From: Candidatus Moraniibacteriota bacterium
GTDB lineage: Bacteria; Patescibacteriota; Minisyncoccia; Moranbacterales; UBA1568
Direction of reading: 5' to 3'
DNA: 64,000 nucleotides
Assembly: GCA_049287005.1 (NCBI GenBank)
Contig: JBAQEZ010000003.1
Span: forward strand, 95,493 to 159,492
Under the pieces are notes generated by a model. It was not told the origin of the DNA. It worked only from the letters and a program-made list of their open reading frames with translations, and searched no databases. This document shows positions 45,829 to 63,751 of this stretch, piece by piece. The translations under genes and the position numbers were made by a program. How positions within the stretch are numbered: position 1 is the first letter of the stretch; the number at the start of each line of letters is the position of its first letter.

Positions 45829-45837
45829 TCGTTAATT

Positions 45838-47578: not shown

Positions 47579-47597
47579 AGATATTATTGTGCTGTAT

Positions 47598-48017: not shown

Positions 48018-48036
48018 AAAACGTTCAATCTAAAAC

Positions 48037-48582
48037 CTACTTTAATTTTTTCAATTGGTTATTCCTTTCATTTACACATTCAGTAATGTTGCTATTATAT
48101 TCTTCTGTATAGGCGGGCTTATAATCATTAGCAAGCTGTTCTTGAAATCTTTCTTTGCTTTTTGAAAGACAATCGTTATATTTATCTATGGCTTTTTCAG
48201 CTATAACGTTTTTCTGTTTTATTAAATCACACTCGCTCTCGCTGACTTTGAGGGTAGTGCCGTCAAAAGCCAGACAGGATACTATTTTTTCTTCTACTTT
48301 TATTGGAGCAACTTCTACGCTTTTTATGGCTGTCTGGGTTTGTTGGGTAGTGGCTTCCGATACTGGAATGTCTTTTTCTGCTTCTTTATTTGCTTCTTGA
48401 TTGGTTTCATTTTTTGCTTGCAATTCCTCTACTGATTTTTGTAAGGCTTCAACTTGTTGTTTAGTTTTTTCTTTTTCATTTTTGATTACAAAATAGCCAG
48501 ACGCAACCGTTGTTGTTACTGCTGACGTTATAACTACTGTGAGCAATAATGCCCGGTGTTGTTGAAGAAAATCTTTAATCAT
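48037..48582 (-). CDS. membrane-anchored coiled-coil protein, hypothetical
   Basis: N-terminal TM (ALLLTVVITSAVTTTVASGYFVI) followed by a K/E/Q-rich coiled coil; overlaps the upstream gene by 8 nt. Confidence 0.45.
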   Translation of the reverse strand: MIKDFLQQHRALLLTVVITSAVTTTVASGYFVIKNEKEKTKQQVEALQKSVEELQAKNETNQEANKEAEKDIPVSEATTQQTQTAIKSVEVAPIKVEEKIVSCLAFDGTTLKVSESECDLIKQKNVIAEKAIDKYNDCLSKSKERFQEQLANDYKPAYTEEYNSNITECVNERNNQLKKLK

Positions 48583-49069
48583 ATTTATTGTCAGACCAGC
48601 CGTTTTCTTTTTTTAACTGATGTAATTTTAATAACCAATTGAGTTTTGTGTAGAATGTAAGTAATGCCATTGCTAATCCACAAAAGAGAGCCAATCCTAC
48701 CAACCCAAGTATCAATTCACCCAGTAGCCCTATCCCTTTTGGTGTTAGATCGTAAAGTTGTGAAAAACCAAATAAAAAAATAATCACTAACGTAGTGGCT
48801 AGTATATTTGATACTATTTTCACGCCACCGGTCAGCTCGGTATTTTTTATATAGTGCATTGTACGTATAAAACATTTTATATCACGCAACTTTGAACTTA
48901 TTAATTTTCGTTGTTCTTTGGTGAGATCAGAAACTTTCTCAATTAATAGATTTCGTTGTAAAGCAAAATAATATTTCTCGGAACAATCACCACAAAGGGG
49001 TTCATTATCTTCTGTCCACTTATCAGGACAATCCATTATTTTTTTACACCAAACACAGCTTTCTTCCAT
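48575..49069 (-). CDS. zinc-ribbon (CxxC...CxxC) protein with two C-terminal TM helices, hypothetical
   Basis: CVWCKKIMDC...CGDCSEKYY, then two hydrophobic helices. Confidence 0.5.
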   Translation of the reverse strand: MEESCVWCKKIMDCPDKWTEDNEPLCGDCSEKYYFALQRNLLIEKVSDLTKEQRKLISSKLRDIKCFIRTMHYIKNTELTGGVKIVSNILATTLVIIFLFGFSQLYDLTPKGIGLLGELILGLVGLALFCGLAMALLTFYTKLNWLLKLHQLKKENGWSDNKYD

Positions 49070-49723
49070 AGATACTATAAATAAAAAAAGGCAACCCTAC
49101 TGGTTGCAACACCCAACTAGACGATTATGCCCAGCTGTTTGAAGTAGGATTGCCCTTTTCAGGCACAATCCCACCTGCATAAAGCAAGGGTTTTTAGTTG
49201 AGTGTTGCATACTTAAATTACCACGAAAAACGTCCAGAATCAAACGTAAAAATTTGACTTTTTTCCAATTTGCGTGTATACTGTATGCAGTTGTTTATCA
49301 ATTATTGTAAAGAGTTTGGAAATCTGTTTAGTGAAATGTTGATTTTTCCACTGCGCGGAGAGAACCTCCCCAGTAACTTGTTGGTTGATTGAAGCTAAAT
49401 AAGATCCCAGACGATTCCTTTTGAGGAACATTATTTTTATCATAGGTTATTGCATACACACAGAGGGCGGAAAAGAGGGTTGATATCCTCTCTGACGAAA
49501 ACTCATTCTCCATAAAAAGAGATATGTCAGTCCGATCATTGTAACTGTTGTAGGGCGTTCAGAATAAACGTTAAGTAAGGCTCAAAGAAATCATTATCAA
49601 ATTAGGCAGGTTAGTTTCTGCTCTCTTTGGTGGTTATTTCTTTGAGTTTTTTTGTTATAAGAAAGAGGGTAGGCGTAATTTGCCTGCCCTCTTTTATTTG
49701 TCTAATCCATTAAACACACAAGT

Positions 49724-49924
49724 ATGCGGTCAATAGAAGCAAGGTTCAAAAAAGTGCAGGTCAGGAATTTTATCAAGAGTTCTTATGATTGTTTTGCAGA
49801 GGCAATATCGGGGCAGAAGTTTAGCAGGGAAGTGATCCATCGCTGGTTTATGAAACTGGTCAATAAAGACGATTATGCTAAAAGAGAGAAAAAAGAGTTA
49901 TTGCTATATCTGGAAAGTTTATGA
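49724..49924 (+). CDS. small hypothetical protein
   Basis: 66 aa, downstream of a 650-bp divergent regulatory region. Confidence 0.3.
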   Translation: MRSIEARFKKVQVRNFIKSSYDCFAEAISGQKFSREVIHRWFMKLVNKDDYAKREKKELLLYLESL

Positions 49925-50567
49925 AACGTCCGAGGACGACAGAAAATGCGGGGGTAAAGGCGGTTTGGGAGAGGGGCAAAGGGTAAATGATACATATTTA
50001 CCAAGTACCACGAGAAACAATGCTTAAAACGAGTTTTGTAAAAATAAGAATCAAATATGAAAAAGAAATGGTTAAGGAATAGAAACTATTATAAGTATTC
50101 CTTTTCTAACAAACCTGTCCATTGAAAATGAGGGTCAAATAGCTCTTGCCGGTGGCGAATAATAAGCCCAAGGTAATAAGCTAACGCCGGTTTGTTCGTT
50201 CCGGTAAATTCAAAACGATAGTCCGTGCGTTATACAGGAACTGGGGCGCAAGGAATACACATTATGGAGAGTGAAATCTCCTACCCAATGCTTCTTGTTA
50301 ACAGTAGCAAGATAACCGTTCCGAAAAAGGAAGCTGGGCTGCGGTACGCTCTAAATTACCGCCCTTGTGTCGCTATCCATATGAACAATCGTGTGGATAG
50401 CGATGTAAGGATAATAGTTTCAAAATCGTTAGCGACCCCCTCATTTTCAGGTTCCGGATACATAGCCGATCAAATAACCCACTCAAAAAGACGGGAAACT
50501 ACAACCATATATCGCAATCTCTTATAACCATATTAAATAGCTAATAAGAATAATTATTTATAAGTAT

Positions 50568-51104
50568 ATGGACAAAAAAAAGAAAAAAAAGAGAGGTGTT
50601 TATCTAAAAAATATGAAACAGAAAGAGAAACTAGAAGAATATGACCCCAATAATGGCAAGGGACTGAAATTACAATGGCTCAATTTCATAAAAGAATATA
50701 TCAAAAACGGGGGAAACGCTACGGAAGCCTATATAACAGCATACCCAGAAGTTAATAGGGAATCGGCGAGGCGCAATGGGTCGCGCCTGTTGACACACGC
50801 AGACATTATAGGAGAAATCGGAAACCGTTATGACGTTCAGACGGCGACGGACGCTTGGGTTATTGCTACGGCTATGAAATACGCCAAAGCAGGGTTAGAG
50901 AACCCCAAAGTGGCACTAGCCGGAGTGAAAGCACTAGAAATGATCGCTAGGAGCAAGGGTATGCTAACGGACGTTCAAAAAGTGGAATTTACAGCAGAGA
51001 ATCCGGCAGTTTTCTTTGCTCCATATAGCAAGGAAGAAGCAGAAGAAATGGATAAAATGTTCCAGCCGAAAGACGGGAAACCCCCAATTCGGATAATTGA
51101 ATAG
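50568..51104 (+). CDS. phage terminase small subunit-like protein (P27/Terminase_2 family)
   Basis: GGNATEAYITAYPEVNRESARRNGSRLLTHADI is the characteristic TerS HTH; 178 aa. No terL, portal or capsid genes are nearby. Confidence 0.65.
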   Translation: MDKKKKKKRGVYLKNMKQKEKLEEYDPNNGKGLKLQWLNFIKEYIKNGGNATEAYITAYPEVNRESARRNGSRLLTHADIIGEIGNRYDVQTATDAWVIATAMKYAKAGLENPKVALAGVKALEMIARSKGMLTDVQKVEFTAENPAVFFAPYSKEEAEEMDKMFQPKDGKPPIRIIE

Positions 51105-51466
51105 ATTACTAGAAAAAAGCCTTTTTGGTGAAAACGTTATGGAAAGAACCCGGGAAAATCAGGATAGAGTTTCTACTCCACGGGTAGCTGGTTCTTCCTT
51201 TGGCTCTATTCCTTTAAGGAGTTTTGGGAGTATAATAGAGTATGACAGTCGGATAGGCTTAAAACAATTGAGCAGGGAGATCCCTAGTAACGCATTTATA
51301 TTCAATGTAGGGAGTACTTATGTTGTTGTCGTTTTATAGTGGCTTATGATATATCTCATTTATGGAACAGGGGGCTATTCAATTAACTTTCCTTAATCCA
51401 CTATCCTTTCTAATAAGGGGTTGGAGTTGGTTTATTAGAGAATTCCCAGAAAAGCGTGTTTCTGAC

Positions 51467-52345
51467 CACAATATGATTTTCATCGGACCGCCGGGATCGG
51501 GGAAAACGCTTTTGGCGAAAACATTGCCCACCATCCTGCCGAAGTTGGATTTGGCCGAGAGTCTGGAAATTACCAAAATATTTTCGATCGCCGGATGTTT
51601 ACCAAAAGATAAATCGTTGATCATGACACGACCGTTCCGTTCCCCTCACCATACAGCCAGTGCGGTCTCTCTCGTGGGTGGCGGTTCTTTTCCGAAACCG
51701 GGAGAAATCAGTCTGGCACACCGAGGAGTATTGTTTCTGGATGAGTTCGCGGAATTCTCGCGGACGGTTTTGGAGAATTTGCGTCAGCCGCTCGAAGACG
51801 GGGAAATCACCGTCTCCCGAGCTAGAGGGTCTTTGCATTTTCCGGCGCGTTTCATGTTGGTGGCGGCGATGAATCCGTGTCCGTGCGGGCACGCAGGAGA
51901 CCCGCAGCGTGCCTGTGCTTGCGCGCCGTATCAGGTGGTGCGTTATCGACAGAAAATTTCCGGACCGATCCTGGATCGTATCGATCTGCATATTGATGTG
52001 CCGCGAGTGAAATTCGAGAAGCTGGCAGAAAAAGAAACCGGTGCAGAAAAAAGCAACGTTATCCGGGCGCGAGTCGAAAGTGCACGGGCCATACAGAAAG
52101 AGCGCTTCGCGGAGAAAACGTGTCGAACCAACGCGGAAATGACGAGCCATATGGTGAAAGAATTCTGTGTGTTGAACGATGAGACGCGGGATATTTTGCG
52201 TAGTGCTGTATCGCAATTGAAGCTTTCTGCGCGCGCCTATATGCGGATTTTGAAAGTGGCTCGGACAATCGCGGATTTGGCACAGGTGCCGTCTATCGGG
52301 GTCTCGCATCTGGCCGAAGCGCTCCAGTATCGATTCAAAGAGTAA
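51467..52345 (+). pseudogene. comM: comM/yifB C-terminal fragment (AAA+ and Mg-chelatase C-terminal domains)
   Basis: HNMIFIGPPGSGKTLLAKTL... continues the interrupted N-fragment. Track ORF 51362..52345 starts inside island DNA. Confidence 0.8.
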
Positions 52346-52437
52346 AGAATTTTTTGGTGGTTATTTTCTTTGTCCAAGCTCAAAAAAACTTCAAGCTTCC
52401 TAGAAAGATTCTTGCGATGAAAGACCACTTTTATTGA

Positions 52438-53445
52438 GTGACTATGAGTGAACGAGAAATTATGGATTACGGACTTCGAACGAAAAAAGCGCAGAGGAAA
52501 AGGGGAATGAAAATCATTTCTTTTTTCATCATCCTTCTCTTTCTTGGCGTGGGAGCATATATTGTTTTGGGGAAGACAGGATCAGAAGCGTGGAACTGCA
52601 ATGCTCAAAAAACAATCACGGTGGTCGATAACGGGCTCGAATTTCCGTTTGCTGATGTGGCTGAAAAAACCGTCGGAGAACTCCTCCTTTCGAAAAAGAT
52701 CATCCTGACTTTGGGTGACAGCATTTTTCCTGACGTAGAGGCACCGCTTTTCTCCGGTACGCGTATCCTGATCGCGCGCTCTCATCCGCTCTCGGTCGTG
52801 GTTGATGGTGGCGAGCAGGTACTCCATACGCAGGCGCTCTCAGTGGGGCAAGCTCTCGAGGAGAGTACCATCGCGATAGACGAAGACGATATCGTGAAGC
52901 CGAGCCGTGATATGTTTGCAGTGAACGGTATCAGAGTCGTGATCACGCGGGTGCAGATTGAAGAGCAATCAGTCGAAAAACCGATCGCCTTTGATAAAAA
53001 GGTGAATGAAGATGGTAATCTCTCCTGGAGAAAAAATGTCGTGACGCAAAAAGGAGAGAATGGCATACAGAAGCTTATCTATAGAGTAAGCAAATACGAC
53101 GGTAGGGAAGTAAATCGCAAACTTTTGAATACGGAAGTTATCAGGGACCCGGTTGCGCAGATAGTGACGCAAGGAACGCATGTACAGTTGGGGAAAAGCC
53201 ATAGTGGCGGAGCTTCGTGGTATGCTTTCACTGGAACGATGGCAGCGGCCAATCCGTGGCTGCCGATGGGGAGCTATGTGAAAGTAACCAATGTGGGCAA
53301 TGGTAAGAGCGTGATCGTGAAGATCAACGATCGTGGGCCGTTCGTTCCTGGGCGTATTATTGATCTTGATAAAGCAGCCTTTACTCGTATTGCCTCAATT
53401 GGCGCCGGCGTCATCAATGTGAAAATGGAGGAAATCATCAATTGA
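52438..53445 (+). CDS. membrane-anchored G5-domain + RlpA-like double-psi beta-barrel protein (cell-wall associated)
   Basis: N-terminal TM; G5-like region (NLSWRKNVVTQKGENGIQKLIYRV...); C-terminal GGASWYAF...VKVTNVGNGKSVIVKINDRGPFVPGRIIDLDKAAF RlpA/DPBB signature. Confidence 0.7.
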   Translation: MTMSEREIMDYGLRTKKAQRKRGMKIISFFIILLFLGVGAYIVLGKTGSEAWNCNAQKTITVVDNGLEFPFADVAEKTVGELLLSKKIILTLGDSIFPDVEAPLFSGTRILIARSHPLSVVVDGGEQVLHTQALSVGQALEESTIAIDEDDIVKPSRDMFAVNGIRVVITRVQIEEQSVEKPIAFDKKVNEDGNLSWRKNVVTQKGENGIQKLIYRVSKYDGREVNRKLLNTEVIRDPVAQIVTQGTHVQLGKSHSGGASWYAFTGTMAAANPWLPMGSYVKVTNVGNGKSVIVKINDRGPFVPGRIIDLDKAAFTRIASIGAGVINVKMEEIIN

Positions 53446-53452
53446 TGTCCGT

Positions 53453-53529
53453 CAGCTGAGCGAGAATGTGGTGCAGATGAGCCCGGTAACTTCAAGGACA
53501 TTTTCAGCTGGGCAAAATTGTAGATGAGG
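53453..53529 (+). repeat. 78-bp degenerate copy of the giant-gene 3' end, positioned just upstream of the giant gene (direct repeat with 60218..60295)
   Basis: cagctgagcgagaatgtggtgcagatga...aaggacattttcag[c/t]tgggc[a/g]aaattgtagatgagg; about 90% identity with a 1-nt indel. Confidence 0.85.
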
Positions 53530-53644
53530 AAAAGAGCGCGCATGGACATGGGCAAAGACTGCAAGCAGCCTACCGCAGAAGAATCTCATACCTCTGTATG
53601 AGATTTTTCTTTGCCTTCTGAGAGTATCTTTTTCTCCTCTTTTT

Positions 53645-56600
53645 GTGGTATTATTTCAATGGATGGTTGTTGTTCAAACAGCTATTTTGAGTGTAGAAAA
53701 AAGAAACAGCAGTATGCAAAACGTCTTGTCGGCGCATCAAAGAAGAAAACGGTATCAGATGAAAAATCGCAGACGGCTGGGGTGTTTTGACGGCGGCGCG
53801 TATCAATCGCGGGTCAGTATTTTGTGGCGACGCTTACGACAGCAGTATCGGCGATGGCAAGCGGAGGTATCCGCGCCTATGGCGGCGCACATACTTGATT
53901 TTTTCGTGCGAACCAAGAGGCCGAAATCATTCGATAGTGTCAAGGCGAAAAGAAGTATTTCCCGGAACAAGAGAGGGCGATCTCCTTTCGGTCTTGCTTC
54001 CATGTGGTACCGGCGGTATATAGCATTCAATCCGGTGGCCAAGGTTTCGGCCCTCCTTATCGTCATGCTGCTTAGTGGCGTGTACCTCTTTCCTTTTGGA
54101 ACACAGGGTGCGACTTTCACGTTCGTCCAAACTTCCTGGCTCGGCGGAGCCACCGCGAATCCCGCCACTCACGCGAGCAACCAGACCGGTTGGACGGAAT
54201 ATGCCAGCAAGGACACGAATGTCTCAGCGGTGAATGGAGGTGCGGACGTGACTCTGACGTCGACCAACTACGCTTTCACCGATGATGGGACAACGGATGT
54301 CTCGCCAACCGGAGGAGTCGCTACATCCGGGGGCGGGTTTGGGAACGGGACGAATGCCAGCACGACCGTAACCGGCAGCGGGACAGGGGCGAGCGTGGGG
54401 CTCGCGGGTTCGGTTACCGCATTCGATACCCGAGATGATTATACAGTAGGCACCAACCCCCAGTTTGCCGCCTTCGACTCCTCTACGAATTCCGTCTGGG
54501 TGTCGAATTACGCCTCCGGCAACGTCACAAAACTCAACCCCGCCACCGGCGCGGTTATCGGTACCTATACGGTCGGCACCAATCCGGTCGGTGTCCTCTT
54601 CGATCCTTCCACCAACTCTATCTGGGTTGCGAACAACGGTTCAGACACCATTACGAAACTCAATGCCTCCACCGGTGCCCCGACCGGCACCTATAACACG
54701 GGAACCCACCCGAGAACGCTCGCCTTCGACTCTTCCACCAACTCTATCTGGGTATCGCAAGAAGGTGCGTATGTTTCAGGTTCCGTCGCTAAATTCAATG
54801 CCTCCACCGGTGCCCTCCTCGGTACGTATCCCACGTCTGCCTATCCGGGTAATATCGCCTATGATGATTTTACCAACTCTATCTGGCAGGCGAGCGGCGG
54901 CGACAGCAAGCTTTACAAGCTCAACGCTGCTACGGGCGCCCTGACTGCTAGCTCCACCTCGGGTATGGGGTCCTCACTGACTTACGATTCTTATACTCAC
55001 TCCATATGGCTGGGGAGATTCGGTTACTCTGACCCCGAAATTAAAAAATTCGACGTTACCACCGGGGCAAACACGGCTACGGTATATATTGCATCCGTTA
55101 ATGATACTGGGTATGTCAACTTTGACCCTGCGACCAACACTATCTTAGTGACAGGGACTAGCAACAATACCGTTACGAGATTCGATGTCTCCACCGGCGC
55201 GACTCTTGGTGTGTATAGCACCGGCACTACCCCGCAAAGCGCCATCGCCGACCCCTCTACCAACTCCATCTGGGTGACGAACTACGGCACGAACACCGTC
55301 TCCAAGATCAGTGGCCTCACCGGGTCCACTTCGGCGAACTATACTGTCGGCACTACTCCGCAAAATGCCGTCTTTGACCCCTCCACTAATTCCGTCTGGG
55401 TAGCGAACTACGGCTCCAACAATGTTAAAAAACTTAATGCTTCCACCGGAGCGGTCACCGGCACCTATACCGTGGGTACCAGTCCTTATGCCATTGCTTT
55501 CGACTCGTCCACCAACTCCGTCTGGGTGACCAATAGCGGATCCAGCAATGTCAAAAAACTCTCTGCCGCCGACGGCACGGTCACGGGTACCTATACAGCA
55601 AGCACCAGTCCCAGGGGCATTGCTTTCGACTCGTCCACCAACTCTATCTGGGTATCAAACTTCACCTCCAATAACGTCACCAAACTCTCTGCCGCCGATG
55701 GCTCGTACATCGGTACCTATCCTGTAGCCACAGGAGGGAACCCTCTTGGTGTTGCTTTCGACTCCTCCACTAATTCCATTTGGATAGCTAATAGCGCTAC
55801 TGCCAACGTCACCAAACTCACTGCCGCCACCGGTGCGCTTGTCGGCACGTATGCCGCAGGCACCACCCCGACACGTTTGGCCTTCGATTCTTCAACCAAC
55901 TCTATTTGGGTGACCAATAGCGGATCCAATAACGTCAAAAAACTCAGTGCCGCCGACGGTTCGGTTACCGGTACGTATACCGTAACTAGTGCCAGTGGGA
56001 TTGCCATCGATCCCACCACGAGCTCTGTTTGGGTGTCGAGTGGGGGTGCTAGTAACACGCTTGTCACTAAACTCAATCTTGCTACTGGCGCGACAATAAA
56101 GACCTATACGGTGGGGACTCAACCATCGGGAGTGACTTTCGACTCCTTCACCAATTCCATCTGGGTTGCGAACTACAGCACTAATAACATCACTAAAATA
56201 GTCACCGGCACCACCACGTATTCCACCCCCGGCACCTTCACCTCCGCAGTCATTGATCTGGGGACCGGCGTTGGCTTTGGCACGATGTCGTGGACGGCCA
56301 CGCTCAACAGCCAGACGCTCACCATGAAGGCTCGTTCCTCCGCCACGGTAGACTTTTCCGGCGCCACCGCGTGGGCGAGCTGTACCGACATCACGAGCGG
56401 CGCCGCGCTCTCTACCGGCGGCTGCATCACCGATGGTCACCGATACATTCAGTATCAAGCCGCCTTCTCCACTGCCGATACCGCCATCACCCCCGCTCTC
56501 AATAGCGTCTCTATCGCCTATGGCCAATACGGTAGCGGCACGCTTACCTCATCTATTTACAACTCTTCCTCCGCGGCCAATCTTCTTTCCAGACTGACAT

Positions 56601-59600
56601 GGACGGCGACCGGTACAAGTGGGATGGAAACAGTCCAATTCCAAGTCCGTTCCGCCGCTACCTCGGAAGGCGTGGCGGGCGCGACCTGGTGCGGGTATGA
56701 AAATTGCTCGGGCACGAGCTACTTCGACGCGGCCGAAAGCGGCGTGACACTTTCTCCCTCCCATCCTCTTATGATCGGTACAGATGATCAGTATTTTCAG
56801 TACAAAGTGATCCTTTCGGGCGGTGCCGTCACCCCCGTGTTAAACAGCGTGACGGTTCAATATGTCGTCAACGCCGCACCGAATCTCGATACATCCTTCG
56901 GCACGAATGGCATCACGGTGGCGCAGATTTCCGATTTTTCCGATCCTGACTGGGGAAAAGTCCGCATCACGTATCAAGTGCGCGATGTCGATACCGGAGA
57001 TGGAACAAACACTCCTGGCTCGGTCACTCCCTCCTTTGCCTACGACACCGGCTCAGGATTCACGACGATCACAGCTCCGAGTATCGCGGCCGGCTCTCTC
57101 ACGAGCAAAGCGGTTGATGCTTCGAGCTATACTCAGTATGAGGCGATCTGGGACGCTCAAACCGATATCCCGGACACTTTCGCGGCAGCACTCCAGGTGC
57201 GGGTTACGGTAAACGACAATGAAGCGGCCAACAACACGGCGACCGCCACCGATACGCTCGCGTTCGATTCCAAGGATCCTGTTTTGGGTGGGGCTCCGAT
57301 CATCGTCGACGCTTCGACAGTACCGGCGGCAGCCACTTTTTCCGTCACGGACGACTCCTCACTCCAGATGAAAGTCTCCCTCAACGCCGATTTGGCAGGA
57401 GCTTCATGGGAAACCTACAGCGTGAGCAAGACTATGGCTCTCGTTACCAATCCCGATACCGTCTACGCGCAGTTCCGCGATACCTATGGCGACGAAACGG
57501 CAATCGTCTCGGTGGCGTCTACTGAAACGCCGACGCTCATGATCGTGCAGGATATTTCTAATCCAGCGACTTCCGAATGGCGTCTCTTCTCTTCTTGGCG
57601 CGCTGTCGCTGAGCCGTCTGCCGGCTTCGCGAGCTACAAGCTCTATCGCTCCACGGACAATGTTACATTTTCGCTTATTACCACGATCTTTTCGAGAGTC
57701 ATGAATTACTACATTGACGATACTGCCGCTTTCGATACTCTCTACTACTATAAAATCAAGATGACAGACAGTGTCGGAAACGTTTCCTGGTTTTCCAGCG
57801 TTCTGCAGGGGAAAGCCAACGGCACCCAGGACGCGGGGGAAGGGGGCGGGGGAACGGAAACGACCGCCCCGACGATTTCTACGGTGGCCAGTTCCGGCGT
57901 CTCTACCACCGAAGCCACCATCACCTGGGAAACGGACGAGCTTTCCACTTCGACCGTCGGCTTCTCGACCACGCAGGGAATCTTTACGGATGAAATCGGC
58001 GTGGCGACGTATACCGACAACGCCGCCGGTTCCGGCATCCATCAAGTTGTTCTCTCCGGTCTGACACCCGATACCACCTATTATTATCAGGCGAAATCTG
58101 CCGACCCTTCGACCAACGAGGGCATCGCCAACAACGGCGGCACTGGGTATGTATTTACCACACTCCCCGGTCCGGCTATCTCCGGCGTAGCCATATCATC
58201 GGCTGCCAATACGCAGGCCACCATCACCTGGAATACGGACATCGCTTCCACCTCCACAGTCGTGTATTCCGCGTCTGTCTCGGGAGGGGCGCTGGTCACT
58301 CCGACCGAAGTCGGCAGCTCGACGCCGGTGACTGTCCATAGTGTGCTCCTCTCTGCGCTCACGCAGGGCACGACGTATTACTTCTCCGTCAAATCACAAC
58401 ACGGTAGCGATATCGCCCAAGATACCAATGCCGGCAGCTTCTACCAATTCACGACTACGTCGGATGCGACCAGCCCCATCATCTCCTCGCTCGCGGCCTC
58501 CGTCATCACCTACGATCGAGCTGCCCTCACTTGGAAGACGGATGAACAGGGTTCTGGCCAGATCCGCTACGCCACCGTCTCCGGTGGCCCCTACACTCAG
58601 ACCACCGAAACCGCCACCTACGGACAGGATCATTTCGTCATCCTGCCTTCCCTCATCACCGACACCCTCTACTACTTCAAGGCCTACTCCCGGGATCTCT
58701 CCGGCAACGCGACACTGTCTCCGGAGAACTCTTTCACCACGCTTCAGGATCCGAGCTACCAGCATGATCCCCTCAGCAGTATCACGAGCGTTTCTGCCTC
58801 TCTTGTCACGGATACCAACGCGGTCATCTCCCTGACAACCGACCAACCGGCACTGTGTACTATCGAATACGGCACGGCCCCAGGCAGCTACACCGCTACG
58901 CCCGTGACGGAAACATTGGAAAACAAGCGTCATGCGATCACGCTTCCTTCGCTTCTGTTCAGCACGACATATTATTACCAGGCGACGTGCATCGACAACC
59001 TGGATACGTCCGTGGAATCCGATGAGGAGAGCTTCGCTACCACAGTCGAACAGGTGGACACGGGCAGCGAGGGCGGAGATATCGTCGCCCCGGCCATTTC
59101 CAGCGTCAGTGTCGGGACCGTTACCGGCGAGAACGCGACGATTACCTGGACGACGGATGAGGATGCGAATGGTTACGTCCGTTACGGCATCACCACGGAC
59201 TACGGCAGTATGGCCGGCGATGATTTGGTGAACGCTGCCATCTCCACGTACGCGACCGAGCACACCGTCATTTTGCGAGACCTGATTCCGTCGACGAAAT
59301 ACTACTATACCGTCCTGTCTTCCGATGCTGCCGGCAATCTGACGACTTCCTCAGACTCCTCCTTCACCACTGCCTCTCCTTCCACCATCTCCTCCATCAA
59401 TATCCTCTCGACCAAGATCGGCGAAGCCACCCTGACCTGGAAAACCAGTTCCGCCATGACCTCCATCGTGGAATATGGTCTCACCGAAACCTACGGCGAC
59501 AAACAAGAAAGTGGCACCTCGACGGAAACGCACAGCCTGACGGTCGCGAAGCTTCAGAGCAATCAGCTCTACCACTTCCGCGTCAAAGGCAAAGACAAGG

Positions 59601-60289
59601 ACGGCAACCTCTATTCCTCTTCCGACTACACTTTCGAACCGAAATCTCCTCCGCAGATCCAGAACGTCGCGAGCAAGGTGCTGTCCGACAACGAGGTACA
59701 GGTGGATTTCACGACCAGCGCTCCGACGGATGCCCTGGTAGTCTTCACCAACACGAAGGACGAAAAAGATACCGGGAGCCAAGGCAAGCCGGATCTCAGC
59801 ACCTCTCACAGCCTCATTCTCAAAGGACTGCAGGCGGGAGCCACGTACTCCGGCAAGGTGGTGGCGCACGATGAGGCGGGCAACGAAGTGACGGAAATCG
59901 TCAAGAACTTCACCCTGAGCCAAGACGATACCTCTCCGACAATCGATCAGTTGAAAACCGACATGGCTCTGGCTCAAGATGGGAAGGTTCAGGCCATCAT
60001 CTCCTGGTATACCGATGAGCCGACCACCACCGTCGTGACCTACAAAGAAGGCTCGGGAGGGGACGAAAGGATGCTCAACGTCAAGGATGACTATTCCGCG
60101 GCGCACATCGCCATCATCACCACATTCAAGGTCGGTTCCGTGTATTTCCTCAAAGCCCACTCCGTTGACAAAGCAGGTAACGAAACCGTCTCGAGAGAAC
60201 GGATGATCCTCACTCCTCAGCTGAGCGAGAATGTGGTGCAGATGATCATCGGCAATTTCAAGGACATTTTCAGTTGGGCGAAATTGTAG
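53645..60289 (+). CDS. giant (2214 aa) cell-surface protein: N-terminal signal-anchor, ~25 YVTN-type beta-propeller blades, beta-sandwich region, eight Fn3-like domains
   Basis: Blade repeat GTYTVGT.P.G.AFDSSTNSIWV.N.GSNNV.KL.A..G; Fn3-like repeats P.IS.V....T...ATITW.TDE.S.S.V.YG...YYY.A.S.D. The start codon is uncertain (GTG 53645 or a downstream ATG). Confidence 0.8.
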   Translation: MVLFQWMVVVQTAILSVEKRNSSMQNVLSAHQRRKRYQMKNRRRLGCFDGGAYQSRVSILWRRLRQQYRRWQAEVSAPMAAHILDFFVRTKRPKSFDSVKAKRSISRNKRGRSPFGLASMWYRRYIAFNPVAKVSALLIVMLLSGVYLFPFGTQGATFTFVQTSWLGGATANPATHASNQTGWTEYASKDTNVSAVNGGADVTLTSTNYAFTDDGTTDVSPTGGVATSGGGFGNGTNASTTVTGSGTGASVGLAGSVTAFDTRDDYTVGTNPQFAAFDSSTNSVWVSNYASGNVTKLNPATGAVIGTYTVGTNPVGVLFDPSTNSIWVANNGSDTITKLNASTGAPTGTYNTGTHPRTLAFDSSTNSIWVSQEGAYVSGSVAKFNASTGALLGTYPTSAYPGNIAYDDFTNSIWQASGGDSKLYKLNAATGALTASSTSGMGSSLTYDSYTHSIWLGRFGYSDPEIKKFDVTTGANTATVYIASVNDTGYVNFDPATNTILVTGTSNNTVTRFDVSTGATLGVYSTGTTPQSAIADPSTNSIWVTNYGTNTVSKISGLTGSTSANYTVGTTPQNAVFDPSTNSVWVANYGSNNVKKLNASTGAVTGTYTVGTSPYAIAFDSSTNSVWVTNSGSSNVKKLSAADGTVTGTYTASTSPRGIAFDSSTNSIWVSNFTSNNVTKLSAADGSYIGTYPVATGGNPLGVAFDSSTNSIWIANSATANVTKLTAATGALVGTYAAGTTPTRLAFDSSTNSIWVTNSGSNNVKKLSAADGSVTGTYTVTSASGIAIDPTTSSVWVSSGGASNTLVTKLNLATGATIKTYTVGTQPSGVTFDSFTNSIWVANYSTNNITKIVTGTTTYSTPGTFTSAVIDLGTGVGFGTMSWTATLNSQTLTMKARSSATVDFSGATAWASCTDITSGAALSTGGCITDGHRYIQYQAAFSTADTAITPALNSVSIAYGQYGSGTLTSSIYNSSSAANLLSRLTWTATGTSGMETVQFQVRSAATSEGVAGATWCGYENCSGTSYFDAAESGVTLSPSHPLMIGTDDQYFQYKVILSGGAVTPVLNSVTVQYVVNAAPNLDTSFGTNGITVAQISDFSDPDWGKVRITYQVRDVDTGDGTNTPGSVTPSFAYDTGSGFTTITAPSIAAGSLTSKAVDASSYTQYEAIWDAQTDIPDTFAAALQVRVTVNDNEAANNTATATDTLAFDSKDPVLGGAPIIVDASTVPAAATFSVTDDSSLQMKVSLNADLAGASWETYSVSKTMALVTNPDTVYAQFRDTYGDETAIVSVASTETPTLMIVQDISNPATSEWRLFSSWRAVAEPSAGFASYKLYRSTDNVTFSLITTIFSRVMNYYIDDTAAFDTLYYYKIKMTDSVGNVSWFSSVLQGKANGTQDAGEGGGGTETTAPTISTVASSGVSTTEATITWETDELSTSTVGFSTTQGIFTDEIGVATYTDNAAGSGIHQVVLSGLTPDTTYYYQAKSADPSTNEGIANNGGTGYVFTTLPGPAISGVAISSAANTQATITWNTDIASTSTVVYSASVSGGALVTPTEVGSSTPVTVHSVLLSALTQGTTYYFSVKSQHGSDIAQDTNAGSFYQFTTTSDATSPIISSLAASVITYDRAALTWKTDEQGSGQIRYATVSGGPYTQTTETATYGQDHFVILPSLITDTLYYFKAYSRDLSGNATLSPENSFTTLQDPSYQHDPLSSITSVSASLVTDTNAVISLTTDQPALCTIEYGTAPGSYTATPVTETLENKRHAITLPSLLFSTTYYYQATCIDNLDTSVESDEESFATTVEQVDTGSEGGDIVAPAISSVSVGTVTGENATITWTTDEDANGYVRYGITTDYGSMAGDDLVNAAISTYATEHTVILRDLIPSTKYYYTVLSSDAAGNLTTSSDSSFTTASPSTISSINILSTKIGEATLTWKTSSAMTSIVEYGLTETYGDKQESGTSTETHSLTVAKLQSNQLYHFRVKGKDKDGNLYSSSDYTFEPKSPPQIQNVASKVLSDNEVQVDFTTSAPTDALVVFTNTKDEKDTGSQGKPDLSTSHSLILKGLQAGATYSGKVVAHDEAGNEVTEIVKNFTLSQDDTSPTIDQLKTDMALAQDGKVQAIISWYTDEPTTTVVTYKEGSGGDERMLNVKDDYSAAHIAIITTFKVGSVYFLKAHSVDKAGNETVSRERMILTPQLSENVVQMIIGNFKDIFSWAKL
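54430..56210 (+). repeat. intragenic tandem ~120-bp repeats encoding beta-propeller blades
   Basis: Recurrent ttcgactc(c/g)tccaccaactc(c/t)atctgggt at the DNA level. Confidence 0.7.
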
Positions 60290-60295
60290 ATGAGG
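60218..60295 (+). repeat. 3'-terminal 78 bp of the giant gene (copy B of the flanking direct repeat)
   Basis: See 53453..53529. Confidence 0.85.
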
Positions 60296-60347
60296 GGTAT
60301 ACTACAATACGAAATGCAGATCAGTAATTCTTCAGCATGCTAACGCA

Positions 60348-61652
60348 ATGAATGGTCCATTGTTGCACGTCGAAAATTTGAACGTTACCTATAACGAGGG
60401 AAAGCAGAATGAGATGCGTTCGTTGCAGGACATCAGTTTGGACATCTATCCGGAAGAATATGTGATCGTCTTCGGACCGTCGGGATGTGGAAAATCGACG
60501 CTGCTGTATTCGCTGGCTGCACTGCAAGCGCCGACTTCCGGCGAAATCTTCTTCAATGGGCAGGCCTTTTCCCAGATGAGCAAGAAAGACAAGCTGCTCT
60601 ATCATCAATTGGGTATGGGCATCATCTTTCAGGCATTCTTTCTCATCCCTTCTCTGACTATCATCGACAATATCTGCCTCCCGAAACTTTTCAGGAACGA
60701 AGATAAGCAAGCGCGCCGCGAAGAAGGGATGCAGCTTTTGAAACGCTTCGGTATTTTGGAACAGGCCTTCAAATTCCCGAGCGAACTGTCCGGCGGGCAG
60801 AAACAAAGAGCCTCCATTGCCCGCTCGATGATCAATAAGCCGGATATTATCTTTGCTGATGAGCCGGTAGGAAACCTCGACAGCGCATCCGCTACCAACG
60901 TGTTGGAAATTTTGAAAGAGCTGAATGAGGTTGACAAGAAAACGATTATTCTGGTGACTCATGAACAGAATCATCTGCAATACGGCGACCGCAATCTCTT
61001 TATGAAAGACGGACGGCTGGTAAAGGAAGAGGTGCGCAAAGAGAAACGGGCCTTCGGAGGATCTCTATCGAAGCCGGCAGAGGAAGCCGCAGAGCGTTTG
61101 CCCGAACTGGAGATGTTGCTCCGTTCATTCCGTGGTATGCCGGAGGAGCAAGCGTCAGTGTTGCTCCTGCCGTATAAGATCAAGCAGCTGATGTTCCATA
61201 TTTTTTCGGAAATCACCGAAGAGCAAGTCAGGATTACGGAGGGATTTCTCCGGGATTATTTTTTCAATACCTTGGACAAGGAGCAGCTGGCAGGGGTATT
61301 GGATGCTGGTTTCGCTCAGGGGGGGGCGAACTGGAACACTCGCCGGGCTCTCTCTTTTTCCAATCGTGTGAATGAGCTTGTTGTTCAGGCAAAAAAGATC
61401 AAAGAGTCGCCTCAAACAGCGTCGAGTACGCTCAGCGCCTATCTTGTCCAGGCTTTCTCTTTGCGTCTGAACGAGGAACAATCCGCGCGTTTCGAAGCTC
61501 TTTTGAAAGAGCGTCTCGATAACGCAACGGATTGCGCCGGGCTGGGTCATTTGCTGGACATCCCATGGGAACAGGAGGGATTGGGGCTCCATAAATTCAC
61601 CGCCGAAAGAATCGCTCGGGAAGTAGAACTGATTCTCTTGCTTAAATACTAA
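60348..61652 (+). CDS. ABC transporter ATP-binding protein (MacB/LolD/FtsE-like) with ~200-aa C-terminal extension
   Basis: Walker A GPSGCGKST, signature LSGGQKQR, Walker B IIFADEP, H-loop; the extra C-terminal domain is unrecognised. Confidence 0.85.
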   Translation: MNGPLLHVENLNVTYNEGKQNEMRSLQDISLDIYPEEYVIVFGPSGCGKSTLLYSLAALQAPTSGEIFFNGQAFSQMSKKDKLLYHQLGMGIIFQAFFLIPSLTIIDNICLPKLFRNEDKQARREEGMQLLKRFGILEQAFKFPSELSGGQKQRASIARSMINKPDIIFADEPVGNLDSASATNVLEILKELNEVDKKTIILVTHEQNHLQYGDRNLFMKDGRLVKEEVRKEKRAFGGSLSKPAEEAAERLPELEMLLRSFRGMPEEQASVLLLPYKIKQLMFHIFSEITEEQVRITEGFLRDYFFNTLDKEQLAGVLDAGFAQGGANWNTRRALSFSNRVNELVVQAKKIKESPQTASSTLSAYLVQAFSLRLNEEQSARFEALLKERLDNATDCAGLGHLLDIPWEQEGLGLHKFTAERIAREVELILLLKY

Positions 61653-61667
61653 GGCGACAATAGATCT

Positions 61668-62867
61668 ATGAAGCTTTCCGATGCATTCAGCCTTTCCACG
61701 CGCATGTTCAAGGCTCGCAAGATGAGAACCGCTCTCACTATTTTGGGTATGAGCGTGGGTATCGGCGCGGTTCTTTTCCTGGTCTCTTTGGGCTATGGTC
61801 TCCAGAAAGCATTGCTCGATCGCATCACGACAGCTGATTCTCTTGTCACGCTCGATGTCACGGAAGCCAACGCTGCCCTGGTGCCGATCAATCGGGATAT
61901 GGTAGGAAGAATCCGCTCTTTGGAAGGAGTGACTGAGGTGAGCCCCGCTTCTCGATTGACTGCTCAGGGGATGCTTGGTGATATATCGCTGGATTTGGCC
62001 GTTGTCGCGACGAATCCAAATTTTATGAAATTGAGTGGCTTCCGTCTTGACAGAGGATCAATGATGAACGATGCCGACCCTTACGGCATCCTGATTTCTT
62101 CCGCGCTGGCCAAAGTACTCGAAAAGGATGGAGAGACTATTTTGGAAAAGTCGATCGAGCTTACTTTTTTTGTGCCGCGCGTGGACAAAGAAAGCACCCA
62201 AGAAAAATTGGACAAAATAGGCTCAGAGCAAGGATACAAGGTTATCGGCATCCTTCCGAGTGAGGAGAATATCATTTTCGTCCATGCCACTTCTCTGCCC
62301 GCCGACGCCATCGATCATTATTCCCAACTGAAAGTGAAATGCCAGTCGAGCGCGACTATGCAGGCAGTACGCGATAAGATCATGGAGGAGGGACTCTTGG
62401 TATCATCGCTTTCGGATACAGTGGATCAGGCGAACAAGATTTTTTCCATCGTGCAGATCGTACTCATGAGCTTCGGTGTTGTCGCTCTGGTCGTTTCCGC
62501 TATCGGTATGTTCAATACCATGACCATCACGCTGATGGAGCGCACCGAGGAGATCGGCATCATGAAATCGATCGGAGCTTCCGACGGAAGCATCTCCACA
62601 CTGTTCTTGTGGGAATCGGTCATCATGGGGCTCCTCGGCGGTTTGGGTGGGGTAGCCCTCGGGCTCATCGGCGGGCACGGGCTGAATATAGCCATCAATT
62701 TTTTGGCGGTGCGGCTCGGTGGAACATCGGTCAATCTTTTCTATACGCCGAACTGGTTCATTCTTCTGATCGTCGTCTTCGCTGCTTTTGTCGGTTTTTT
62801 GACGGCAATCGTCCCGGCCAGACGGGCGAGTCAGATAGATCCGTTGGATGCCTTGCGTTACAAGTAG
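61668..62867 (+). CDS. ABC transporter permease, FtsX/MacB-like
   Basis: N-terminal TM, large extracytoplasmic domain, and a C-terminal FtsX domain with three TM (…GIMKSIGASDGSI…). Confidence 0.8.
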   Translation: MKLSDAFSLSTRMFKARKMRTALTILGMSVGIGAVLFLVSLGYGLQKALLDRITTADSLVTLDVTEANAALVPINRDMVGRIRSLEGVTEVSPASRLTAQGMLGDISLDLAVVATNPNFMKLSGFRLDRGSMMNDADPYGILISSALAKVLEKDGETILEKSIELTFFVPRVDKESTQEKLDKIGSEQGYKVIGILPSEENIIFVHATSLPADAIDHYSQLKVKCQSSATMQAVRDKIMEEGLLVSSLSDTVDQANKIFSIVQIVLMSFGVVALVVSAIGMFNTMTITLMERTEEIGIMKSIGASDGSISTLFLWESVIMGLLGGLGGVALGLIGGHGLNIAINFLAVRLGGTSVNLFYTPNWFILLIVVFAAFVGFLTAIVPARRASQIDPLDALRYK

Positions 62868-62950: not shown

Positions 62951-63751
62951 ATGAGAAACATGCTCGTAAAACCGAAAAAATCATTGGGGCAGAATTTTCT
63001 TCAGGATGCGGAAGTCATCGAGGGTATTTTCGAGGCGGCGGCAGTAGAGAAGACGGACTGGGTGTTTGAAATCGGCCCAGGAACAGGGCTCCTGACCGTA
63101 CGGCTGGCGGAGCAGGTGGAAAAAGTGCTGGCCATCGAACTAGATCATGAACTCGTAACGCGTTTGCAGAAACAGTTTGTCGATTCGAGGAGCGTCTCGA
63201 TTCTGGAAGGGAATATTCTGGATGTAGATTTGAAAGAACTGCTCGATGCATCAGGATTCGCTGCCCATTCCTATAAAATTATTGCCAACATTCCGTATTA
63301 CATCACTGCGCCCATCATCAAAACGCTCCTCTCGCTCAAACATCAGCCAGAGACGATGACACTCATGGTGCAGGATGAAGTGGCGGATCGTTTGGCGGCG
63401 CGACCGGGGAGTATGTCTCTTCTTTCTCTCATGGCGCAATACTATGCGACTGTCGAGAAGAAATTCTTCGTTCCGAAAGAAGCGTTTGAACCTGTGCCGA
63501 AAGTGAACAGCGCGGTGATTCAGATTATTCCGAGGAGAGCCTATGATCCCGAAGAGGATCGGAAAGTATTCCGTCTGGCGCGAGCCGGATTCGCTGCGCG
63601 GAGAAAAACATTGGCCAATAATCTTTCCTCCAGTCTATCTCTCTCGAAAGAGGATGTGGAAGAAAAATTGAAATCACTTGGTCTGCGTCCGGATATCCGG
63701 GCACAGGCACTTTCTATCGAAGATTGGGAACGTCTAGGGGAGATCTTTTAG
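62951..63751 (+). CDS. ksgA: 16S rRNA (adenine1518/1519-N6)-dimethyltransferase
   Basis: LGQNFLQD and EIGPGTGLLT SAM-binding motifs; NIPY motif. Confidence 0.85.
   Translation: MRNMLVKPKKSLGQNFLQDAEVIEGIFEAAAVEKTDWVFEIGPGTGLLTVRLAEQVEKVLAIELDHELVTRLQKQFVDSRSVSILEGNILDVDLKELLDASGFAAHSYKIIANIPYYITAPIIKTLLSLKHQPETMTLMVQDEVADRLAARPGSMSLLSLMAQYYATVEKKFFVPKEAFEPVPKVNSAVIQIIPRRAYDPEEDRKVFRLARAGFAARRKTLANNLSSSLSLSKEDVEEKLKSLGLRPDIRAQALSIEDWERLGEIF

What the first reader, a model, noticed from the sequence alone, without database searches (positions are those of the whole stretch)
53453..60295. 78-bp direct repeats (copies of the gene's own 3' end) exactly flank the giant surface-protein gene
The last 78 bp of the 2214-aa gene (encoding ...QLSENVVQMIIGNFKDIFSWAKL*) recur at ~90% identity at 53453-53529. 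That is 8 bp after the upstream rlpA-like gene stop and ~120 bp before the giant gene's promoter.

The upstream copy has a 1-nt indel and is non-coding. It is best explained as the relic of a tandem paralogous giant gene that was deleted, or as the footprint of recombination that swaps giant-gene alleles.

Either way it marks a hotspot for variation of a surface adhesin.
Basis: seen in the sequence. Interest (0 to 1): 0.6.

Follow-up and report, generated by a model that had tools for sequence, protein, structure and literature searches.

The report
Leftover end of a lost giant gene
A 78-base copy of the giant surface-protein gene's own 3' end sits just upstream of that gene in a Moranbacteria (CPR) genome; it is most likely the dead remnant of a second, tandem giant gene, at a locus where related genomes carry different numbers of such genes, which is a tidy but ordinary piece of genome evolution.

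Summary
Window 53452-53529 matches 60217-60295 at 72/79 identity with one 1-nt indel (E 1e-21). Independent public assemblies of the same organism (Cand. Moraniibacteriota, GCA_049304235.1; Logan SRR28062879) carry both copies unchanged.

The repeated piece is the last 23 codons, the stop and 6 nt of 3' flank of the giant gene. These codons encode a C-terminal tail (..TPxxxENIIQIIxxNFxDIFxWAK*). In a 76-locus metagenome scan that tail ends giant ORFs of about 1300-3400 aa. In 21 of 57 informative loci a MacB/LolCDE-type ABC pair follows it.

Relatives carry real tandem giant genes whose tails are their most similar part (82-95%). The closest ortholog contig (L062) begins and ends with an identical 123-nt tail.

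At the same rlpA|ksgA site relatives show four states:
- no cassette;
- the ABC genes without a giant gene (L155);
- a giant gene plus the ABC genes;
- the window's state, relic plus one giant gene plus the ABC genes.

It is not a shared 3' UTR, an att site or a target-site duplication. Active allele swapping is not shown. Interest is modest: a new example of a known kind.

The parts
52438..53445 (+). Upstream gene for a DUF348-G5-DPBB (RlpA/Rpf-like) cell-wall protein. Its TGA stop lies 6 nt before the relic. The gene caller in the independent assembly starts it at 52444.
   Evidence: Pfam DPBB_1 3.3e-18, G5 3.7e-18, DUF348 5.9e-11. 58 homologous loci in Moranbacteria genomes. Exact product found in Logan contig L156.
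53452..53529 (+). Upstream repeat copy: a non-coding relic of a giant-gene 3' end. It covers tail codons QLSENVVQM..GNFKDIFSWAKL, the TAG stop and 6 nt of flank, and carries a 1-nt deletion plus 2 clustered substitutions.
   Evidence: 91% identical to 60217-60295, E 1e-21. Frameshifted, with only a 13-codon open frame. Present at 100% in independent assembly L156.
53580..53612 (+). Intrinsic-terminator-like hairpin (12-bp stem, CUCU loop) followed by a T-run. It probably terminated the lost upstream giant gene and now sits after the rlpA-like gene and the relic.
   Evidence: RNA fold dG -19.3 kcal/mol, z = -6.6, 0 of 200 shuffles as stable. The simple terminator scan missed it.
53646..53654 (+). 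TGgTATTAT extended -10-like promoter motif for the giant gene. The same motif follows the tail and spacer in relatives L062 and L003.
   Evidence: Alignment A3: invariant TGGTATT block in window, L062 and L003. The consensus promoter scan did not call it, so the assignment is inferred.
53714..60289 (+). Giant surface-protein gene, 2191 aa from the ATG at 53714 (the longest mechanical ORF starts at the GTG at 53645, 2214 aa). In order it has a basic N-terminus, one hydrophobic anchor, about 14 YVTN/NHL beta-propeller repeats, Fn3/Pur_ac_phosph_N-type domains and a conserved C-terminal tail.
   Evidence: ORF list and translation. Start 53714 as called in L156. Pfam Pur_ac_phosph_N 1.1e-40, NHL 3.8e-18, fn3 3.8e-13. 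42-aa repeats (D2). Ortholog L062 is 65% identical over the C-terminal 1376 aa and 40% over the N-terminus.
60217..60295 (+). Downstream repeat copy: the functional tail codons, the stop and 6 nt of flank of the giant gene.
   Evidence: 100% in L138 and L139.
60348..61652 (+). ABC transporter ATPase, LolD/MacB-type with a C-terminal extension of about 200 aa. It is the conserved downstream partner of tail-bearing giant genes.
   Evidence: Pfam ABC_tran 1e-30. NCBIfam LolD 5e-62, below cutoff. A homolog lies directly after the tail in 21 of 57 informative loci.
61668..62867 (+). MacB/FtsX-type permease (type VII ABC), the second gene of the conserved pair.
   Evidence: Pfam MacB_PCD 1.7e-22, FtsX 6e-17. 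Co-occurs with the ATPase in the loci.
62951..63751 (+). ksgA/rsmA-like rRNA adenine dimethylase, the conserved right-hand neighbour. In the window's closest relatives it directly follows the rlpA-like gene.
   Evidence: Pfam RrnaAD 9e-58. Synteny in L004, L005, L006, L010 and L024.

Best explanation
The upstream 78-nt copy is a decaying remnant of the 3' end of a second giant surface-protein gene, or of a second copy of the same 'spacer + giant gene' unit, that once lay directly upstream in tandem.

The organism is a Candidatus Moranbacteria (CPR/Patescibacteria) bacterium. Its giant protein belongs to a family that ends in a strongly conserved tail of about 25-30 residues (..TPxxxENIIQIIxxNFxDIFxWAK*). 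The family often occurs as tandem genes and is often followed by a MacB/LolCDE-type ABC transporter pair.

In this lineage the layout was probably [giant A][terminator, promoter][giant B][ABC1][ABC2], wedged between the rlpA-like gene and ksgA. A deletion then removed giant A from just after the rlpA stop codon down to its last 23 codons. What remains is the relic, A's terminator hairpin and B's promoter.

The homology ends 6 nt after the stop codon in both copies. That is what a tandem duplication with a unit of about 6.77 kb (53530-60295) would produce.

Shown:
- the repeat exists in independent assemblies and the upstream copy cannot code;
- the tail is a conserved coding module;
- tandem tail-sharing genes exist in relatives;
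- giant-gene content at this site differs between lineages.

Inferred:
- that a full giant A existed here;
- the deletion itself;
- that the relic has no function of its own today.

As a side effect, the two copies, which include a 29-nt exact block, could still support rare unequal recombination that deletes or re-duplicates the giant gene. This has not been observed.
For: 1. The repeat is real: 72/79 identity, E 1e-21, no third copy in 64 kb. It is reproduced at 100% in independent assemblies.

2. The relic cannot code. A 1-nt deletion splits the tail frame.

3. The tail is a conserved protein module, not a UTR element. Five protein homologs end in it. In a 76-locus metagenome scan it closes ORFs of about 1300-3400 aa.

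4. Relatives have true tandem giant genes that share the tail. L070 has two genes 118 nt apart; L072 and L075 each have two giant genes separated by one short gene. Their tails are the most similar part of the genes. In L070 the last 163 nt are 95% identical, 367 nt are 85% identical, and the rest cannot be aligned. In L072 the last 185 nt reach 82% against 68% over 1087 nt. In L075 the last 85 nt reach 87% against 65%. The window's 91% falls in this range.

5. The closest ortholog contig, L062 (65% aa over the C-terminal 1376 residues), begins and ends with an identical 123-nt tail. L143, from the same sample, starts in that tail and continues into ABC1. Ten Logan contigs of another relative all break inside the tail. 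L073 starts with a 60-nt repeat of its tail end.

6. L003 shows the end of a giant ORF (tail and stop), then a spacer, then the same TGGTATTCTT motif that precedes the giant gene in L062 and the window.

7. After the relic comes a strong terminator-like hairpin (z -6.6) and then the promoter-like motif. This is the layout expected for a spacer between two giant genes.

8. Content at the site varies. rlpA is followed directly by ksgA in L004-6, L010 and L024. rlpA is followed by ABC1-ABC2-ksgA with no giant gene in L155. Giant-ABC1-ABC2-ksgA occurs in L140-L154.
Against: - No relative was recovered with a complete giant gene between the rlpA-like gene and a second giant gene. All contigs of the nearest cassette-bearing relatives break in or near the tail, so 'giant A at this position' remains an inference.
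- L155, the one relative that lacks the giant gene, has no significant tail remnant (best local alignments no better than shuffles). It is therefore not the product of tail-to-tail recombination, or any remnant has decayed.
- Four of the six substitutions between the copies are synonymous (P = 0.013 against random). Outgroup states (L001, L003, L062) suggest these arose on the functional gene's branch, so the pattern does not prove that the relic was long part of a working gene.
- A duplication of just the ~80-nt segment would leave the same present-day sequence.
Confidence: 0.72

Rival explanations
1. Duplication of the small segment alone. Only the ~84-nt piece (tail end, stop and 6 nt) was copied to the rlpA 3' flank, by replication slippage, template switching or a repair patch. 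No second giant gene ever lay here.
For: The present sequence alone cannot separate this from a truncated tandem copy. No full upstream paralog was recovered at this position in any relative. The relic keeps ancestral-looking states and has few changes of its own, which fits a fairly young copy.
Against: Tandem giant genes sharing the tail are documented in the family. In L062 the upstream copy is at least 123 nt, longer than the window's 78 nt, so a larger upstream piece exists in a relative. L003 shows the end of a giant ORF followed by the same spacer and promoter motif. The relic's right edge coincides with the expected unit junction, directly before a terminator and promoter spacer.
Confidence: 0.12
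2. Active recombination substrate. The flanking tail repeats are kept because unequal homologous recombination between them switches the giant gene's copy number (0, 1, 2...) or lets incoming alleles replace it, acting as a variation device.
For: Copies within one genome are more alike (window 91%, L062 100%, L070 95%) than copies between genomes (76-81%). This is compatible with gene conversion or recent recombination. A 29-nt exact block is present. From general knowledge, this is about the minimal length for RecA-dependent exchange in E. coli. Giant-gene number differs between lineages at the same site. The N-terminal half of the protein diverges far faster than the C-terminal half.
Against: No deletion or duplication junction was observed. 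L155 has no hybrid tail between rlpA and ABC1. The relic is frameshifted and diverged in its middle, as a neutral remnant would be. High similarity of tails is equally explained by strong purifying selection on the tail peptide. Three assemblies show the same single arrangement.
Confidence: 0.1
3. Mobile-element boundary. The repeats are att sites or a target-site duplication made when the giant gene was inserted by a recombinase or transposase.
For: Direct repeats flank a 6.7-kb segment. The cassette is patchily distributed among Moranbacteria.
Against: There is no recombinase or transposase between 53.4 and 62.9 kb; only the giant gene and two ABC genes lie there. There are no terminal inverted repeats. 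78 nt is far longer than typical target-site duplications (general knowledge). The right copy is coding sequence conserved across the whole protein family. The variable block extends beyond the right copy to 62.9 kb.
Confidence: 0.02
4. Translated extension. Read-through of the rlpA-like TGA stop would add 25 residues ending in GNFKDIFSWAKL, giving the cell-wall protein the giant-protein tail core.
For: After the 1-nt deletion the conserved half of the tail is in frame with the rlpA-like gene, with no further stop..EEIIN*CPSAERECGADEPGNFKDIFSWAKL*. All 12 tail-core residues are intact, although 4 nucleotides differ.
Against: An in-frame, stop-free arrangement is expected by chance about one time in six (own estimate). 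The relatives' rlpA-like genes end at the same stop without any tail. Nothing suggests recoding, and the genes here read correctly with TGA as a stop. The four synonymous differences probably arose in the functional gene rather than in the relic.
Confidence: 0.03

Closest known systems
Truncated remnants of tandemly duplicated genes (gene relics left by deletion inside paralog arrays)
   Same: A short, frameshifted, non-coding copy of a gene end lies directly next to a full-length paralog. The homology stops at a unit junction, and relatives carry intact tandem copies.
   Different: Here the surviving piece is exactly the most conserved module of the protein family, the C-terminal tail. It sits at the edge of a cassette whose presence differs among genera. 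The full upstream copy was not directly observed at this position.
Tandem clusters of giant extracellular proteins that evolve by recombination, e.g. Giant1-5 of Apilactobacillus kunkeei (PMC12863079)
   Same: Consecutive genes for very large surface proteins. According to that paper's abstract, diversification occurs by intragenic recombination and gene gain. Both cases show variable and conserved parts within the proteins.
   Different: The phylum and domain make-up are unrelated (beta-propeller plus Fn3 here, beta-solenoid there). The window has only one intact gene plus a relic. No recombination tracts were tested here.
Large Fn3/FhaB-type exoproteins of Patescibacteria proposed to evolve rapidly (Patescibacterium danicum, PMC11809585)
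   Same: Very large, poorly conserved surface proteins in CPR bacteria. Those authors speculate about homologous-recombination-driven variation.
   Different: That work found no full-length homologs and did not describe a conserved C-terminal tail, an ABC partner or a flanking relic.
Type I secretion of giant adhesins (C-terminal signal recognised by an adjacent ABC exporter)
   Same: A giant repetitive surface protein with a conserved extreme C-terminus, encoded next to an ABC transporter.
   Different: The ABC genes here are MacB/LolCDE/FtsX type (type VII), not HlyB type. No membrane-fusion or outer-membrane component lies in the cassette. The protein has an N-terminal hydrophobic anchor, which suggests Sec export. 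The resemblance is by analogy only.

Membership tests
Gene remnant of a tandem paralog | Significant homology to part of a neighbouring functional gene | tested here: met
   72/79 identity, E 1e-21.
Gene remnant of a tandem paralog | Loss of coding capacity | tested here: met
   A 1-nt deletion splits the frame. Only 13 open codons lie upstream and there is no start codon.
Gene remnant of a tandem paralog | Intact tandem paralogs of the same family exist in related genomes | tested here: met
   L070, L072 and L075 each have two tail-ending giant ORFs in one locus.
Gene remnant of a tandem paralog | A full-length copy at the orthologous position in a close relative | tested here: inconclusive
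   L062 has an upstream tail copy of at least 123 nt, but the contig starts there. Contigs L140-L154 break in the tail or the giant gene.
Shared 3' UTR / terminator repeat (REP-like element) | Many copies downstream of unrelated genes | tested here: not met
   There are only two copies in 64 kb. In the 76 metagenome loci the homologous sequence is the coding end of a giant ORF wherever this could be judged. No Rfam family matches. The rest of the genome was not searched.
Site-specific recombination (att) or transposon target-site duplication | A recombinase or transposase inside or next to the flanked segment, with terminal inverted repeats | tested here: not met
   Only the giant gene and two ABC genes lie between 53.4 and 62.9 kb. 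There are no terminal inverted repeats.
Type VII ABC transporter (MacB/LolCDE/FtsEX) for the downstream gene pair | A permease with a MacB periplasmic core domain and an FtsX domain, plus a separate LolD/MacB-like ATPase | tested here: met
   MacB_PCD 1.7e-22, FtsX 6e-17, ABC_tran 1e-30. LolD-like 5e-62, but below the equivalog cutoff.
Type I secretion system substrate and exporter | An HlyB-type ABC exporter with a membrane-fusion protein and an outer-membrane factor | tested here: not met
   The ABC genes are MacB/LolD type. There are no further genes in the cassette.

The most novel reading that the evidence does not exclude
The conserved tail may be an undescribed C-terminal targeting or docking module. 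It would couple giant CPR surface proteins to a dedicated MacB-type ABC machine. Because every family member carries it, tail copies would double as portable homology that lets giant genes be deleted, amplified or exchanged as units. On this reading the window's relic is the visible trace of such a copy-number switch, not a dead remnant.
Probability: 0.12. Interest if true: 0.6.

Novelty: new member of a known kind. Interest (0 to 1): 0.3.

Why it matters
Taken alone, the repeat is a small gene remnant. Its value is as a marker. It shows that giant surface-protein genes in an uncultivated CPR lineage occur in arrays that expand and shrink. It also pins down one site (rlpA|ksgA) where related genera carry zero, one or probably more such genes.

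Following the repeat exposed two further things. First, a widespread, strongly conserved C-terminal tail on giant CPR proteins. Second, its frequent pairing with a MacB-type ABC transporter (21 of 57 loci). My literature searches found no description of either.

If the tail and the transporter work together, that would bear on how these episymbiont-like bacteria display or release their largest surface proteins.

Tried and rejected
- **Generic 3' UTR or terminator element:** rejected. There are only two copies in the window, the sequence is coding in relatives, and no Rfam family matches.
- **att site or target-site duplication:** rejected. No recombinase and no inverted repeats are present, and the right copy is conserved coding sequence.
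- **Assembly artefact:** rejected. Independent assemblies agree at 100%.
- **'Lineage-specific insertion of the whole cassette':** this was my first reading. I revised it when searches showed the same giant/ABC cassette next to ksgA in at least four other diverged lineages. The window's closer relatives by ksgA, rlpA and comM identity lack it, so the distribution is patchy. Either it was lost several times or it was moved by flanking homology; this is unresolved.
- **Tail remnant in L155 between rlpA and ABC1:** not significant.
- **Synonymous-substitution test (4 of 6, P = 0.013):** real, but not discriminating once the changes are polarised with outgroups.
- **Search for orthologous N-termini:** returned mainly generic YVTN/NHL propeller proteins and was of no use for synteny.
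- **AlphaFold2 of the last Fn3 domain plus the tail, with 6 sequences:** the Fn3 fold was acceptable, but the last 13 residues (91-103 of the 103-aa model) had pLDDT below 50, so no structural statement about the tail is possible.
- **Resemblance between the rlpA 3' end and the tail (about 22/36 nt, seen in the MAFFT alignment):** judged to be chance.
- **Literature searches:** found no description of this tail or cassette.
Full report
**1. The observation**

Window 53452-53529 (78 nt) and 60217-60295 (79 nt) align with 72 identical positions and one 1-nt gap. The repeat finder reports the same pair as a 29-nt exact block plus a 46-nt block at 91% (families D12 and D10). blastn of either region against the whole window returns only the other copy, at E 1.2e-21.

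The downstream copy is the last 23 codons of the giant ORF (..QLSENVVQMIIGNFKDIFSWAKL), its TAG stop and 6 nt beyond it. The upstream copy starts 7 nt after the TGA of the preceding gene. It carries a 1-nt deletion with two adjacent substitutions and cannot be translated as a tail.

The arrangement is not an assembly artefact. The window belongs to a Candidatus Moraniibacteriota MAG: ABC1 is 100% identical to a protein of GCA_049304235.1. An independent Logan assembly of run SRR28062879 reproduces window 52321-56808, relic included, at 100%, and 58079-62585 at 100%. The NCBI contig reproduces 57819-64000.

**2. The genes around it**

- The upstream gene (52438-53445) encodes a DUF348-G5-DPBB cell-wall protein, the 'rlpA-like' gene.
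- The giant gene most likely starts at the ATG at 53714. That is the start called in the independent assembly, and the N-termini of this protein and its L062 ortholog align from this ATG.
- The giant protein has, in order: a basic N-terminus, one hydrophobic anchor, about 14 YVTN/NHL-type 42-residue propeller repeats, a run of Fn3/purple-acid-phosphatase-N type domains, and the tail.
- Directly downstream lie a LolD/MacB-like ABC ATPase with a C-terminal extension and a MacB_PCD+FtsX permease. A ksgA-like rRNA methyltransferase follows.
- Between the relic and the giant gene there is a very stable hairpin followed by a T-run (53580-53612; dG -19.3, z -6.6). A TGgTATTAT motif sits at 53646-53654.
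- No Rfam family matches the region.

**3. What the repeated sequence is**

The tail is a conserved protein module. Five database proteins that match the C-terminal 216 residues all end in it.

I then ran a back-translated pattern scan of JGI metagenome contigs. This kind of scan can also find non-coding copies. It returned 76 loci. In nearly all of them the tail closes an open frame of about 1300 to over 3400 codons. The consensus is ..LLTPK(R/K)xENIIQIIxxNFxDIFGWAK followed by a stop.

In 21 of the 57 loci with at least 1.5 kb after the tail, a homolog of the window's ABC ATPase starts right downstream; where the permease was in range it followed.

**4. Tandem genes in relatives**

L070 has two tail-ending giant ORFs 118 nt apart. 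L072 and L075 each have two, separated by one short gene. In each pair the tail is the most similar part of the genes:

| Locus | Tail region | Longer 3' region | Rest of gene |
|---|---|---|---|
| L070 | last 163 nt, 95% | 367 nt, 85% | not alignable |
| L072 | last 185 nt, 82% | 1087 nt, 68% | not reported |
| L075 | last 85 nt, 87% | 839 nt, 65% | not reported |

. The window's 91% lies inside this range.

Other relatives point the same way:
- The closest ortholog contig, L062 (65% aa over the C-terminal 1376 residues; N-terminal half much more diverged), begins and ends with an identical 123-nt tail.
- L143, from the same sample, begins in that tail and continues into ABC1-ABC2-ksgA.
- Ten Logan contigs of another relative all start inside the tail.
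- L073 starts with a 60-nt repeat of its own tail end.

I read these breaks as the tail being multi-copy in those genomes. This is an inference from how assemblers behave.

L003 shows the end of a giant ORF followed by a spacer that ends in the same TGGTATTCTT motif that precedes the giant gene in L062 and the window. 'Tail - spacer - promoter - next giant gene' is therefore a recurrent layout.

**5. The locus across genomes**

I fetched 58 loci around rlpA-like homologs from GTDB species representatives, all Moranbacteria/Patescibacteria. None has a giant gene, a tail or these ABC genes within 10 kb.

In the window's closest relatives by comM, rlpA and ksgA identity (L004-L006, also L010 and L024), ksgA follows rlpA directly. 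L007 and L008 carry unrelated inserts at the same spot.

The cassette is nevertheless not unique to the window. Four more diverged lineages have giant-tail-ABC1-ABC2-ksgA-UbiA-UvrD in the same order: L140/141, L142-144, L145-154, and probably L001. They are 68-77% nt identical to the window and to each other.

L155 has comM-rlpA-ABC1-ABC2-ksgA with no giant gene, and its 94-nt spacer holds no significant tail remnant.

Giant-gene content at this one site therefore ranges from none, through 'relic plus one', to 'one plus at least another tail copy'. Whether the patchiness reflects repeated loss or exchange through the conserved flanks cannot be decided here.

**6. Interpretation**

The simplest account is an array [giant A][terminator/promoter spacer][giant B][ABC1][ABC2] in the ancestor or in a donor. 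A deletion then removed A from just after the rlpA stop down to its last 23 codons.

Homology ends 6 nt past the stop in both copies. This fits a tandem unit of about 6.77 kb (53530-60295). The terminator-like hairpin after the relic would then be A's terminator, now serving the rlpA-like gene.

I put this at about 0.7. The main gap is that no relative was recovered with an intact gene at A's position, because short-read contigs break at the tail.

The rivals, with my confidence in each:
- A duplication of only the ~80-nt piece (about 0.1).
- An actively maintained recombination substrate (about 0.1). This is compatible with within-genome copies being more alike than between-genome copies, but strong selection on the tail peptide explains that equally well, and no recombinant junction was seen.
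- A mobile-element boundary, essentially excluded because there is no recombinase and there are no inverted repeats.
- Read-through of the rlpA TGA into an in-frame tail core, which is expected by chance about one time in six and has no other support.

The excess of synonymous differences (4 of 6, P 0.013) looked like evidence for a long-functional paralog. After polarising with L001, L003 and L062, the changes appear to lie on the functional gene's branch, so I do not count it.

**7. Comparison with what is known**

The relic is a new example of an ordinary class: a truncated remnant beside a surviving paralog.

Tandem clusters of giant surface-protein genes that evolve by recombination are described in Apilactobacillus kunkeei (PMC12863079, abstract). 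Rapid evolution of very large Fn3/FhaB-type exoproteins has been proposed for Patescibacteria (PMC11809585, discussion). The giant-gene survey in bioRxiv 10.1101/2023.11.21.568195 concerns other lineages and architectures.

My three literature searches found no description of this tail or of its pairing with a MacB-type ABC transporter. Absence from that library is not proof of novelty.

The resemblance to type I secretion (giant protein, C-terminal signal, adjacent ABC) is only an analogy, because the ABC genes here are of the MacB/LolCDE type. A shallow AlphaFold2 model gave no confident structure for the tail.

**8. Verdict**

- It is unproven as to any ongoing allele-swapping role.
- Interest is modest at 0.3. 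The more promising lead is the conserved tail plus ABC cassette, which goes beyond the finding as given.

Noticed in passing
window 40138-52342: A comM/yifB-like Mg-chelatase gene is split. Its N-terminal part lies at 40138-40665 and its C-terminal part at 51467-52342 (87% and 90% identical to the intact L006 protein). About 10.8 kb of low-GC DNA (34-38%) lies between them. That DNA encodes a large serine recombinase (40719-42512), a D12 N6-adenine methyltransferase (44341-45258) and a small-terminase-like protein (50541-51101). It looks like an integrated phage-like element and is absent from relatives L004-L010 and L024.
   Followed up: partly
window 15880-17317: Seventeen perfect copies of the 16-nt palindrome TGTTCCACGTGGAACA (0 expected) occur at irregular spacings of 34-337 nt. 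They lie between an rbfA-like gene (minus strand, 14806-15141) and a TSP3-repeat protein gene (17606-18748). No dnaA or dnaN was seen nearby. Function unknown.
   Followed up: partly
window 4159-6112: Dispersed direct repeats in a low-GC stretch. They include a 100-nt pair at 79% identity (4373-4472 and 5924-6023) and a four-copy 67-nt family.
   Followed up: no
L062-L137 (metagenome loci); window 60217-62867: The tail ..TPxxxENIIQIIxxNFxDIFxWAK* ends giant ORFs in a 76-locus scan. In 21 of 57 informative loci a homolog of the window's MacB/LolD-type ABC ATPase follows directly, usually with the permease. This may be a functional cassette; I could not find it described.
   Followed up: partly
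window 53443-53523: After the 1-nt deletion, the conserved half of the relic is in frame with the rlpA-like gene behind its TGA stop (..EEIIN*CPSAERECGADEPGNFKDIFSWAKL*). This is probably chance.
   Followed up: partly
L007 10988-12628; L008 10946-12772: The same rlpA|ksgA intergenic site carries unrelated inserts in two other Moranbacteria. In L007 there are a 105-aa and a 312-aa ORF, which from the look of their sequences may be TrpR-like and HisG-like (not scanned). In L008 there is a 616-aa ORF with many hydrophobic stretches. The site appears to tolerate insertions.
   Followed up: no
window 53714-56500 vs L062 257-2950: The N-terminal, propeller-repeat half of the giant protein is far more diverged between orthologs than the Fn3 and tail half. 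DNA does not align there and the extreme N-terminus is 40% aa identical, against 65% aa identity over the C-terminal 1376 residues.
   Followed up: partly
L138 10088-11496 (same genome, about 4 kb beyond the window's end): A bAvd/23S_rRNA_IVP-family gene lies next to a tyrosine recombinase on the minus strand. bAvd proteins accompany diversity-generating retroelements. This was not examined.
   Followed up: no
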